Shown here piece by piece: positions 1 to 443 of a stretch of 724 bases of DNA. The notes under the pieces were generated by a model that was not told where the DNA came from, did no database searches, and saw nothing but the letters and a program-made list of their open reading frames with translations. The DNA is from Escherichia coli (GTDB lineage: Bacteria > Pseudomonadota > Gammaproteobacteria > Enterobacterales > Enterobacteriaceae). Each line of letters begins with the position of its first letter. Position 1 is the stretch's first letter. The position numbers and the translations under genes are program-made. The stretch is taken from assembly GCF_003334335.1 (NCBI RefSeq), contig NZ_QOWQ01000153.1. One strand, written 5' to 3'.

Positions 1-443
1 GCAAGCACCTCATTTTTTGTTGGGGTGCTTTTTTTCAATTCAGCGATATAGCACTCCAGTTTTTCAATGCGTGATTCAATATCATCGTTTTCTGACCGCA
101 ATGCCGTCGGTGGCGTCTTCAGAGAACCAGTAATTATTCCCGGTAGTTTTCCTCTGTAGGTTATCAACACATCCTGCGCCTCTAAAATTATGGGGCGCTT
201 TTCCGGCGACTGCTCATCCCCTTCACATAAAGCGGCAGCAATATCCATGAAAAACTGCTTCGCCTGTTTTTTCGCCTCAGCTTCGTAAAATTCCAGCGTG
301 GCACCTTCAGTACGGTCAAGACTAATCGCCACATTTGGCAACAACAGTGACGGATACCCACCAATTTCCAGTGCCACAGTAACAGTAATCTTATCCGGGT
401 AATTATTTATCCCTTTAACAACCAGTTTGTATTGTTTATTCAT
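1..443 (-). CDS. Hypothetical protein, function unknown; 5'-complete, 3' end beyond the window (at least 147 aa); not a recognisable endolysin
   Basis: Hand translation of the minus strand from ATG at 443..441 gives an uninterrupted frame to the window edge: MNKQYKLVVKGINNYPDKITVTVALEIGGYPSLLLPNVAISLDRTEGATLEFYEAEAKKQAKQFFMDIAAALCEGDEQSPEKRPIILEAQDVLITYRGKLPGIITGSLKTPPTALRSENDDIESRIEKLECYIAELKKSTPTKNEVL... The other two minus frames carry stops (e.g. at 10..12 and 35..37). A 147-codon stop-free run is unlikely by chance at about 44% GC. The ATG lies 4 nt after the holin stop and is preceded by GGGGAGAG, and is the first start codon after the in-frame stop at 506..504. Absent from the supplied ORF track. 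Confidence 0.75.
   Translation of the reverse strand, partial: MNKQYKLVVKGINNYPDKITVTVALEIGGYPSLLLPNVAISLDRTEGATLEFYEAEAKKQAKQFFMDIAAALCEGDEQSPEKRPIILEAQDVLITYRGKLPGIITGSLKTPPTALRSENDDIESRIEKLECYIAELKKSTPTKNEVL

What the first reader, a model, noticed from the sequence alone, without database searches (positions are those of the whole stretch)
3..140. Homopolymer tracts inside the distal part of the unknown ORF
The plus-strand runs T6 (13..18) and T7 (29..35) are A6 and A7 on the coding strand, within codons for ...ELKKSTPTKNEVL, near a short palindrome (3..9 pairs with 24..30). Runs of seven A are slippage-prone in replication and transcription, so the C-terminal portion could vary in length or frame between strains.
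Basis: seen in the sequence. Interest (0 to 1): 0.2.

Follow-up and report, generated by a model that had tools for sequence, protein, structure and literature searches.

The report
Lysine-codon A-runs doubling as antisense terminator
The two T runs and the small palindrome lie inside a prophage gene of the YdfR family next to the lysis genes; together they look like a transcription stop signal on the opposite strand, and the 7-base run has occasionally lost a base in some E. coli strains, cutting the protein short, which is ordinary mutational decay rather than a programmed switch.

Summary
In detail: T6 (13-18), T7 (29-35) and the palindrome are there, inside a minus-strand ORF. The window is an E. 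coli lambdoid prophage lysis cassette. It holds a class II holin (663..448) followed by a YdfR/DUF1327-family gene (starts 443, 211 aa in full, runs off the window).

- The A7 tract is A6 in two independent alleles, found in 18 of about 137 complete E. coli genomes that carry this module. It is A6 in only 1 of 74 unbiased viral or metagenome loci.
- The A6 alleles truncate the protein at 148 or 151 aa.
- The second tract never changes length.
- Both alternative frames close within 1-13 codons.
- Most length variation in the family (116-333 aa) comes from mosaic module exchange and other indels.

On the + strand the runs and palindrome form one structure. It has a 10-bp stem (3-12/21-30), a loop holding the T6 run, and a T tail, which is the shape of an intrinsic terminator (-15.5 kcal/mol, z -4.5). 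It lies downstream of small antisense ORFs, 22 nt after the stop codon in a sister arrangement. A twin hairpin with a T7-8 tail lies 20-21 nt after another antisense ORF. Terminator function is inferred, not shown. Interest is low.

The parts
3..30 (+). Hairpin. The stem pairs 3-12 with 21-30 (10 bp including one G-U at 10/23) and the loop is 13-20.
   Evidence: As RNA the + strand folds at -15.5 kcal/mol, z -4.5, with 0 of 200 shuffles as good. The coding strand folds more weakly, at -11.2 kcal/mol, z -3.4. The terminator scan reports it on the + strand (L001 4003-4030).
13..18 (+). T6 run. It forms most of the hairpin loop on the + strand. On the coding strand it is A6 within ACA AAA AAT (T142, K143, N144).
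   Evidence: Its length did not vary in 74 unbiased loci: 71 are A6 and 3 are the substitution AAAAGA.
29..35 (+). T7 run. It forms the last two stem bases plus a U5 tail on the + strand. On the coding strand it is A7 within AAA AAA A(GC) (K137, K138, S139). It is a demonstrated frameshift hot spot.
   Evidence: A6 alleles are seen.
1..443 (-). YdfR-family (DUF1327) gene. It starts at 443 and the window holds the first 147 of 211 codons. RefSeq annotates it as a pseudogene 'missing C-terminus', although the ORF is intact.
   Evidence: Pfam PF07041 matches aa 1-112 with E=3.8e-41. PHROGs 2091, 1085 and 406 match.
108..443 (-). The part of the ORF that encodes the conserved DUF1327 domain (aa 1-112). 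Near-identity to most Stx phages stops at window position 108 or 88, which marks a mosaic junction.
448..663 (-). Class II (S21-like) holin gene, 71 aa, directly upstream of the YdfR-family gene in the late operon.

Best explanation
The two runs and the palindrome are one element with two readings.

On the coding (minus) strand they are ordinary codons (K K S T P T K N). They lie in a variable, probably helix-breaking linker of the C-terminal extension of a YdfR/DUF1327-family prophage gene, which sits between the holin and the endolysin genes.

On the + strand the same bases form a Rho-independent-terminator-shaped signal: a 10-bp stem, an 8-nt loop that holds the T6 run, and then a T tail. 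This signal most likely stops transcripts of the small cargo ORFs that lie antisense between the YdfR-family gene and the endolysin gene, before they run into the holin gene.

As a side effect, the 7-base tail is a replication-slippage hot spot. It has lost one base at least twice independently, giving heritable A6 alleles that truncate the protein at 148 or 151 aa.

Shown: the structure, its position, the tract polymorphism and its coding consequences.
Inferred: that the hairpin terminates transcription, that the antisense ORFs are expressed, and that the A6 alleles are simple decay rather than regulation.
For: Anatomy:
- The + strand fold is -15.5 kcal/mol, z -4.5, against -11.2 kcal/mol for the coding strand.
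- Only the + strand has a T tail, and the terminator scan calls the element on the + strand.

Non-randomness:
- 4 of 5000 codon shuffles give one such antisense element and none gives two.
- Resampling synonymous codons while keeping the protein reaches <= -12 kcal/mol in only 2.9% of trials.

Context:
- In the 176-aa arrangement, the stop of an 87-aa antisense ORF (phrog_18136) lies 22 nt before this hairpin.
- In the window's own locus, an 86-aa antisense ORF (phrog_2572, with a GAGGTG ribosome-binding site) ends 144 nt before it. A twin hairpin (AACGCCGCGA...TCGCGGCGTT plus a T run, -17.4 kcal/mol) lies 20 nt after that stop.
- The twin carries a T7-T8 tail 21 nt after the same ORF in the 169-, 176- and 183-aa gene types.
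- A third, unrelated 210-aa antisense ORF with a GGAG site occupies the same slot in the 305-aa type.

Hot spot:
- A6 alleles are present in 7 + 11 complete genomes and 4 metagenome or viral contigs, on two different flanking haplotypes.
- The A8 tail of the twin hairpin also varies: A7 twice, A9 twice, A8 twenty times.
Against: - No transcript data are available, so termination is untested.
- No sigma-70-like promoter was found upstream of the antisense ORFs.
- The antisense ORFs match no Pfam, NCBIfam or PADLOC family.
- The antisense ORFs show no codon-position signature of selection, because there are too few variants.
- The hairpin shows no compensatory changes. Of the eight alleles, several break a pair on the + strand while keeping a G-U on the coding strand.
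- An identical hairpin is present in the 325-330-aa gene types, which have no antisense ORF of this kind.
- The statistical tests were designed after the structure had been seen.
Confidence: 0.5

Rival explanations
1. Pure coding by-product. The A runs are simply AAA lysine codons and neighbouring codons in an A-rich linker. The palindrome is fortuitous or a relic of a small inverted duplication (the 4-codon STPT insertion). The only biology is that A7 is a mutational hot spot in a dispensable C-terminal extension of a prophage gene that is decaying in many strains.
For: - The runs alone are within chance for this codon composition.
- AAA is the preferred Lys codon in this ORF (14 AAA against 5 AAG).
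- The hairpin shows no covariation.
- Substitutions hit either strand's pairing.
- The hairpin is retained unchanged where no antisense ORF is present.
- The gene carries many other disruptions: the 162-aa, 182-aa and 194-aa forms and one form that PGAP annotates as frameshifted.
Against: - Two strong hairpins, each abutted by a 5-8 base T run on the same (antisense) strand, lie within one 636-nt ORF. This was not reproduced in 5000 codon shuffles.
- Both hairpins sit 20-22 nt after the stop codon of an antisense ORF in at least one arrangement.
Confidence: 0.38
2. Contingency (phase-variable) locus. Reversible slippage at A7 switches the YdfR-family protein between a full-length form and a truncated or split form, as an adaptive ON/OFF or domain-splitting switch.
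For: - A7 and A6 both exist on near-identical backgrounds. In-frame proteins P0047, P0049 and P0052 compare with the frameshifted P0045 and P0073.
- A6 is the majority state of one allele (11 of 12 genomes).
- In the window's allele and in the O103-type allele, the -1-base frame stops at a TGA that overlaps the in-frame ATG of Met151 (ATGA). The downstream part could therefore be re-initiated.
- PGAP annotates a separate 178-aa protein there.
Against: - Only two alleles were found, each linked to its own substitutions, which fits two old events inherited or transferred rather than frequent switching.
- No A8 variant exists, and no A6 occurs on the common haplotype in 126 genomes.
- 73 of 74 unbiased loci are A7.
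- Seven bases is short for known contingency tracts (general knowledge).
- The second tract is invariant in length.
Confidence: 0.05
3. Programmed recoding on the mRNA. A dnaX-like -1 ribosomal frameshift, or transcriptional slippage, occurs on A7 and is stimulated by the adjacent hairpin. It yields a truncated isoform (144 aa) alongside the full-length protein.
For: - An A7 run is immediately followed by a stable hairpin on the mRNA.
- The -1 frame hits a stop after 6 codons, as in dnaX, where the shift yields a shorter product (general knowledge).
Against: - A7 starts at codon position 1, so the in-phase heptamer is G AAA AAA rather than X XXY YYZ.
- The stem begins inside the run. There is no spacer, whereas known stimulators have about 5-9 nt (general knowledge).
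- There is no upstream Shine-Dalgarno-like element.
- Seven A is below the length at which E. coli RNA polymerase slips efficiently (general knowledge).
- The hairpin is stronger on the other strand.
Confidence: 0.04

Closest known systems
Rho-independent (intrinsic) terminators lying inside the coding sequence of a convergent gene, including bidirectional terminators
   Same: - GC-containing 10-bp stem, 8-nt loop and immediate U tract.
- Placed 20-22 nt after a same-strand stop codon in sister loci.
- Embedded in the 3' part of the convergent ORF.
- The twin hairpin outside the window has an A run on one side and a T run on the other, like a bidirectional terminator.
   Different: - No 3'-end data exist for this locus.
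- In the window's own locus the nearest + strand ORF ends 144 nt upstream, with another hairpin in between.
- The loop is at the long end of the usual range.
- The element also occurs in loci without an antisense gene.
Morons and antisense transcription units in lambdoid prophage late regions
   Same: - Examples are lambda bor, the STnc6030 antisense RNA of Salmonella prophage BTP1 (PMC7067206) and the convergent sRNAs at moron sites of EHEC prophages (PMC4104026).
- Here too, small units of unknown function are oriented against the late operon at a fixed slot.
- The content of the slot is interchangeable (86-aa, 87-aa or 210-aa ORFs), and it is flanked downstream by a terminator-like hairpin.
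   Different: - Expression in lysogens is not shown here.
- No promoter was found.
- Coding status of the two small ORFs is unproven.
- The slot lies between the YdfR-family gene and the endolysin gene, not directly downstream of pR'.
Simple-sequence contingency loci (homopolymer phase variation)
   Same: A homopolymer inside an ORF differs in length between strains, and the difference shifts the frame.
   Different: - Only a 7-to-6 change was seen, in two linked alleles.
- No evidence of high-frequency reversible switching.
- The tract is shorter than typical contingency tracts.
- The gene's function is unknown.
dnaX-type programmed -1 frameshift
   Same: An A-rich run is followed by a hairpin, and the shifted frame terminates almost at once.
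   Different: - The heptamer is out of phase.
- There is no spacer between run and stem.
- There is no upstream SD-like stimulator.
YdfR of the E. coli K-12 Qin prophage (103 aa, DUF1327)
   Same: - N-terminal DUF1327 domain.
- Position between a class II holin gene and the endolysin gene.
- K-12 YdfR binds the catalytic half of RNase E through residues 1-72 and may bind RNA (PMC13232886).
   Different: - This protein carries a roughly 100-aa predicted helical C-terminal extension, absent from K-12 YdfR.
- The tracts and the hairpin lie in that extension.
- RefSeq treats the long forms as pseudogenes.

Membership tests
YdfR / DUF1327 family | Significant match to Pfam PF07041 | tested here: met
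   aa 1-112 match with E=3.8e-41. PHROG 406, 2091 and 1085 also match.
YdfR / DUF1327 family | Gene lies between a class II holin gene and the endolysin gene of a lambdoid prophage | tested here: met
YdfR / DUF1327 family | Length of about 100-116 aa, as in the family models | tested here: not met
   The ORF is 211 aa. PGAP labels it 'incomplete; missing C-terminus'. Lengths in the family range from 116 to 333 aa.
Intrinsic (Rho-independent) terminator, + strand | Stable GC-containing stem with a short loop | tested here: met
   10-bp stem with 5 G-C pairs, 8-nt loop, -15.5 kcal/mol, z -4.5.
Intrinsic (Rho-independent) terminator, + strand | Run of U immediately 3' of the stem | tested here: met
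   T29-35. Two of these T are in the stem and five follow it.
Intrinsic (Rho-independent) terminator, + strand | Lies shortly downstream of a gene on the same strand | tested here: inconclusive
   It lies 22 nt after an 87-aa ORF in the 176-aa arrangement and 144 nt after an 86-aa ORF in this locus. No such ORF exists in the 325-330-aa arrangements.
Intrinsic (Rho-independent) terminator, + strand | Transcript 3' ends map to the U tract | not testable with these tools
   No transcript data are available.
Intrinsic (Rho-independent) terminator, + strand | Stem kept by compensatory changes | tested here: inconclusive
   Across 8 alleles there are 0 double changes and 95% of cells are paired, which is no better than shuffles.
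Homopolymer contingency locus | Tract length is polymorphic between strains and the change shifts the frame | tested here: met
   This holds for A7 against A6 only. The second tract is invariant in length.
Homopolymer contingency locus | Frequent, reversible switching, with several lengths occurring on the same haplotype | tested here: not met
   No A8 variant exists and no A6 occurs on the common haplotype. 73 of 74 unbiased loci are A7. Each A6 allele has its own linked substitutions.
Programmed -1 ribosomal frameshift site | Slippery heptamer X XXY YYZ in phase with the zero frame | tested here: not met
   The zero-frame codons are TTG AAA AAA AGC, so the in-phase heptamer is G AAA AAA.
Programmed -1 ribosomal frameshift site | Stimulatory structure placed 5-9 nt downstream of the slippery site | tested here: not met
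   The stem starts within the last two A of the run.
Programmed -1 ribosomal frameshift site | The shifted frame encodes a defined product | tested here: inconclusive
   The -1 frame stops after 6 codons and the +1 frame after 13. Only a truncation is possible.

The most novel reading that the evidence does not exclude
The A7/T7 run, together with the A8/T8 run just outside the window, may be a dual-use element. On one strand it would be the U tail of a terminator that closes a swap-in cargo slot set antisense inside the lysis operon of lambdoid prophages. On the other strand it would be a slippage site that converts the YdfR-family protein from a fused form to a split form. In the window's allele and the O103-type allele (not the D allele, which stops earlier at a TAG), the A6 frame ends in a TGA that overlaps the ATG of Met151, so the C-terminal part could be re-initiated. 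Under this reading the polymorphism would be functional rather than decay.
Probability: 0.08. Interest if true: 0.45.

Novelty: new member of a known kind. Interest (0 to 1): 0.2.

Why it matters
The practical value is mainly for annotation.
- The long YdfR-family genes of E. coli prophages are systematically labelled pseudogenes in RefSeq although many are intact.
- Their real disruptions cluster at two A runs.
- If the hairpins are terminators, they mark a previously undescribed slot for antisense cargo genes between the holin-side genes and the endolysin gene of lambdoid and Stx-type prophages.
- That would add candidates for lysogen-expressed accessory functions.
- It would also give a clear example of a coding Lys-Lys run that is constrained from the other strand.
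- None of this changes current understanding of lysis or of frameshifting.

Tried and rejected
- Rfam scan of the locus, both strands, permissive threshold: nothing near a gathering score.
- Covariation test of the hairpin: no compensatory pairs, because the alleles are too similar.
- Strand preference from substitutions: mixed. Some changes keep a G-U on the + strand and others on the coding strand.
- Promoter scan upstream of the antisense ORFs: no hit at the tool's threshold.
- Codon-position test for coding constraint on the 86- and 87-aa antisense ORFs: only 2-3 distinct sequences, so uninformative.
- Family searches for the antisense ORFs. PHROGs gave only unknown-function families for the 86- and 87-aa ORFs, and none for the 210-aa ORF. 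NCBIfam and PADLOC gave nothing for any of the three. Pfam, run on the 86- and 210-aa ORFs only, gave nothing significant.
- The two small antisense proteins are not detectably related to each other.
- NCBIfam on the 211-aa protein: no hit.
- AlphaFold2 with 25 homologues: mean pLDDT 54. Only the N-terminal domain is moderately confident. The tract codons fall at a predicted helix break (139-142) with pLDDT of about 55-60, so this was used only as a weak hint.
- Programmed frameshifting and transcriptional slippage were rejected on phase, spacing and run length.
- Sequencing error as the source of the A6 alleles was rejected, because identical alleles recur in 7 and in 11 separately deposited assemblies.

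Full report
WHAT THE WINDOW IS

The 724 bases match several complete E. coli chromosomes at 100% identity (for example JE86-ST05) and phage PhiR5_1 at 97.5%. Both genes lie on the minus strand. A 71-aa class II (S21-like) holin occupies 663..448. An ORF starts at 443 and runs off the window start. In the source genome this ORF is 211 aa (L001 3808-4443). Its first 112 residues are a DUF1327 domain (PF07041, E=3.8e-41). Downstream lie an 86-aa ORF on the opposite strand, the endolysin gene, small ORFs, Rz and the terminase genes.

RefSeq labels the ORF 'YdfR family protein, incomplete, missing C-terminus' and annotates only window 102-443. The ORF is nonetheless intact, and the deposited annotation of phage PhiR5_1 gives it as a 211-aa DUF1327 protein. 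The only functional data I found concern the 103-aa K-12 YdfR. It binds the catalytic half of RNase E through residues 1-72 and co-purifies with RNA (PMC13232886).

THE OBSERVATION

On the coding strand they read GAA TTG AAA AAA AGC ACC CCA ACA AAA AAT GAG GTG CTT, that is ELKKSTPTKNEVL. The tracts sit at codons 137-144 of 211.

The runs alone do not exceed chance.
- Dinucleotide shuffles give 1.39 T6 hits against 5 overlapping hits observed (11 of 200 shuffles reach that). They give 0.47 T7 hits against 1 observed (60 of 200).
- Codon shuffles of the ORF give A>=6 runs of 1.15 against 3 observed (P=0.08). They give A>=7 runs of 0.41 against 1 observed (P=0.35).

CONSEQUENCES OF SLIPPAGE AND WHAT GENOMES SHOW

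Adding or removing one or two A at either tract closes the frame within 1-13 codons. The products are 143-152 aa, so no alternative C-terminus is encoded.

A protein search returned family members of 116-333 aa. Two clusters (P0045, P0073) end in ...ELKKAPQQKMRYLH. This is the tail predicted for A7 to A6, and their DNA shows A6 in three ENA metagenome contigs.

In complete E. coli genomes:
- The tract-bearing module occurs in only 126 of 5426 genomes, at 159 places.
- By contrast, 3054 genomes match some part of the window.
- Seven genomes carry A6 together with GCATCTC substitutions. The ORF is then 151 aa, and PGAP annotates the remainder as a separate 178-aa protein.
- No genome has A8 or A6 on the common haplotype.
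- A second haplotype, encoding STPTKDEVLALDEM, is in 12 genomes. Eleven of them have A6 (148 aa) and one has A7.

The two A6 alleles differ on both flanks, so two independent events is the simplest reading.

- They returned 43 IMG/VR loci and 31 metagenome loci.
- The first tract is A7 in 73 of these and A6 in 1.
- The second tract is A6 in 71 and AAAAGA in 3, and is never length-variant.

ORF length in these loci ranges from 148 to 330 aa. The causes lie downstream of the tracts.
- C-terminal modules have been exchanged in a mosaic fashion.
- An indel gives the common 162-aa form.
- An A8 run (CCTGAAAAAAAACGC, outside the window) is A7 in 2 loci, A9 in 2 and A8 in 20.

In the window's own locus that third run is interrupted (AAGAAAAAC). 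The pattern is one of rare, heritable frameshift alleles, not of a programmed or reversible switch.

WHAT THE RUNS AND PALINDROME FORM

Folded as RNA, the + strand pairs 3-12 with 21-30 (10 bp, with one G-U at 10/23). The T6 run lies in the 8-nt loop, and T31-35 follows the stem. The fold is -15.5 kcal/mol, z -4.5, with 0 of 200 shuffles as good. The coding strand forms a weaker, interrupted stem (-11.2 kcal/mol, z -3.4) and has no U tail. The terminator scan reports the element on the + strand.

The full ORF holds a second element of the same kind just outside the window (L001 3881-3912). It is AACGCCGCGAACTGCTCATCGCGGCGTT followed by a T run, at -17.4 kcal/mol. Its T run is the antisense face of the A8 tract mentioned above.

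Two null models bear on chance.
- Of 5000 codon shuffles of the ORF, 4 produce one antisense hairpin of <= -15.2 kcal/mol abutting T>=5, and none produces two.
- Resampling synonymous codons while keeping the protein reaches <= -12 kcal/mol in 2.9% of trials.

These tests were framed after the structure had been seen, so they overstate significance somewhat. The signal is still strong.

CONTEXT ON THE + STRAND

The space between the YdfR-family gene and the endolysin gene carries interchangeable ORFs that point against the late operon.
- An 86-aa ORF (phrog_2572, with a GAGGTG site 5 nt before its ATG) is present in the 169-, 176-, 183- and 211-aa gene types.
- An unrelated 87-aa ORF (phrog_18136) is present in another 176-aa type.
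- A 210-aa ORF with a GGAG site is present in the 305-aa type.

The positions fit terminators.
- The twin hairpin lies 20-21 nt after the stop of the 86-aa ORF wherever that ORF occurs, and carries a T7-T8 tail in most of those loci.
- The window's hairpin lies 22 nt after the stop of the 87-aa ORF.
- In the window's own locus it is the second hairpin, 144 nt after the 86-aa ORF's stop and about 90 nt past the twin. The twin's tail is degraded there to T5CTTC.

A segment of about 55 nt upstream of the endolysin start is shared by the three cargo-bearing arrangements and absent from the 329-aa type. This is consistent with a common upstream boundary of the slot.

LIMITS OF THE TERMINATOR READING

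- There are no transcript data.
- No promoter-like site was found upstream of the antisense ORFs.
- The antisense ORFs have no known family or defence-system match.
- Too few variants exist to test coding constraint on the antisense ORFs.
- The hairpin shows no compensatory change. In several alleles a transition breaks a + strand pair while leaving a G-U on the coding strand.
- An identical hairpin is present in the 325-330-aa types, which lack an antisense ORF of this kind.

I therefore put the terminator function at about one half. The alternative is that the element is a coding by-product with a fortuitous palindrome. The frameshift hot spot holds under either reading.

RECODING RIVALS

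A dnaX-like -1 shift is unlikely for four reasons.
- The run starts at codon position 1, so the in-phase heptamer is G AAA AAA.
- The stem begins inside the run with no spacer.
- There is no upstream SD-like element.
- The shifted frames only truncate the protein.

Seven A is also short for efficient transcriptional slippage (general knowledge).

One curiosity remains. In the window's allele and in the O103-type allele, the frame produced by losing one A stops at a TGA that overlaps the in-frame ATG of Met151 (ATGA). The downstream part could in principle be re-initiated. I have no evidence that this happens.

PROTEIN CONTEXT

Relative to the 183-aa type, the tract codons lie in a variable insert made of four extra residues (STPT) plus a 24-residue segment. 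AlphaFold2 with 25 homologues gives only moderate confidence for residues 1-73. It predicts helices 122-138, 143-173 and 181-209, with a break at 139-142, all at low pLDDT. The A6 alleles would remove the widely conserved C-terminal module KRRDEQFAAFYDYCIEVTRRNFVK.FEE.KSLQ, or the longer C-terminal region in the 325-330-aa types.

VERDICT

- The element is best described as Lys-rich linker codons of a long YdfR-family prophage gene. On the other strand these codons have the full anatomy and placement of an intrinsic terminator for antisense cargo ORFs.
- The 7-base tail of that terminator is a demonstrated but ordinary frameshift hot spot.
- Novelty is modest (a new member of known kinds) and interest is low.

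Noticed in passing
window 102-443 (L001 4102-4443), and the same gene in L006-L014: RefSeq/PGAP annotates every long YdfR-family ORF seen here as a pseudogene ('incomplete; missing C-terminus') that stops at the end of the DUF1327 domain. This includes intact ORFs of 176-330 aa, so the C-terminal extensions go unannotated.
   Followed up: partly
L001 3881-3912 (+ strand), about 90 nt outside the window start: A second and stronger terminator-like hairpin (AACGCCGCGAACTGCTCATCGCGGCGTT plus a T run, -17.4 kcal/mol) lies 20-21 nt after the stop of the 86-aa antisense ORF. It sits inside the codons KRRDEQFAAF. In other gene types its T run is T7-T8. On the coding strand this run is the A8 tract, which varies (A7, A8, A9) and gives 194- and 182-aa forms.
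   Followed up: partly
L001 3600-3860 (+); L014 1588-1851 (-); L010 1791-2423 (antisense): Three unrelated ORFs (86 aa phrog_2572, 87 aa phrog_18136, 210 aa with no family) occupy the same slot between the YdfR-family gene and the endolysin gene. All are oriented against the late operon. A conserved segment of about 55 nt lies on their upstream side. This may be a cargo (moron) slot. Function and expression are unknown.
   Followed up: partly
window 176-202 (+ strand): A weaker terminator-like hairpin lies on the + strand inside the DUF1327 coding region. The stem pairs 176-182 with 192-198 and is followed by T199-202 (about -13 kcal/mol). It is also present in the divergent loci L092 and L095.
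   Followed up: no
window 691-724, continuing to L001 4729 (- strand): A 12-bp terminator-like hairpin (AGGGTCATCAGTAAAGAGCTGGTGGCCCT plus TTTGTTGTTG) lies on the coding strand just upstream of the holin gene, between the DUF826 gene and the holin gene. It is cut by the window end.
   Followed up: no
L001 about 2832-2866: A bidirectional terminator-like palindrome (AACCCCGTTTGTTGGCTGCAAGCGGGGTTTT, -19 kcal/mol on the late strand) lies downstream of the endolysin gene. It is conserved in several loci.
   Followed up: no
L006 1577-1580 and the equivalent position in L001 (just outside the window start): In the frame created by losing one A, the stop codon TGA overlaps the in-frame ATG of Met151 (ATGA). 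PGAP annotates a separate 178-aa protein that starts there in the A6 genomes.
   Followed up: no
L012, L026-L028, L059, L061 and others; protein P0037 (216 member sequences): A common 162-aa form ends ...AILDRAGI. It is caused by an indel about 70 nt downstream of the tracts, not at a homopolymer.
   Followed up: no
window about 88-108: Near-identity to most Stx1, Stx2a and Stx2c phages stops at window 108, and at 88 in Stx2 phage 86. This mosaic junction coincides with the end of the DUF1327 domain, so the tract-bearing module is a minority variant (126 of 3054 matching genomes).
   Followed up: partly
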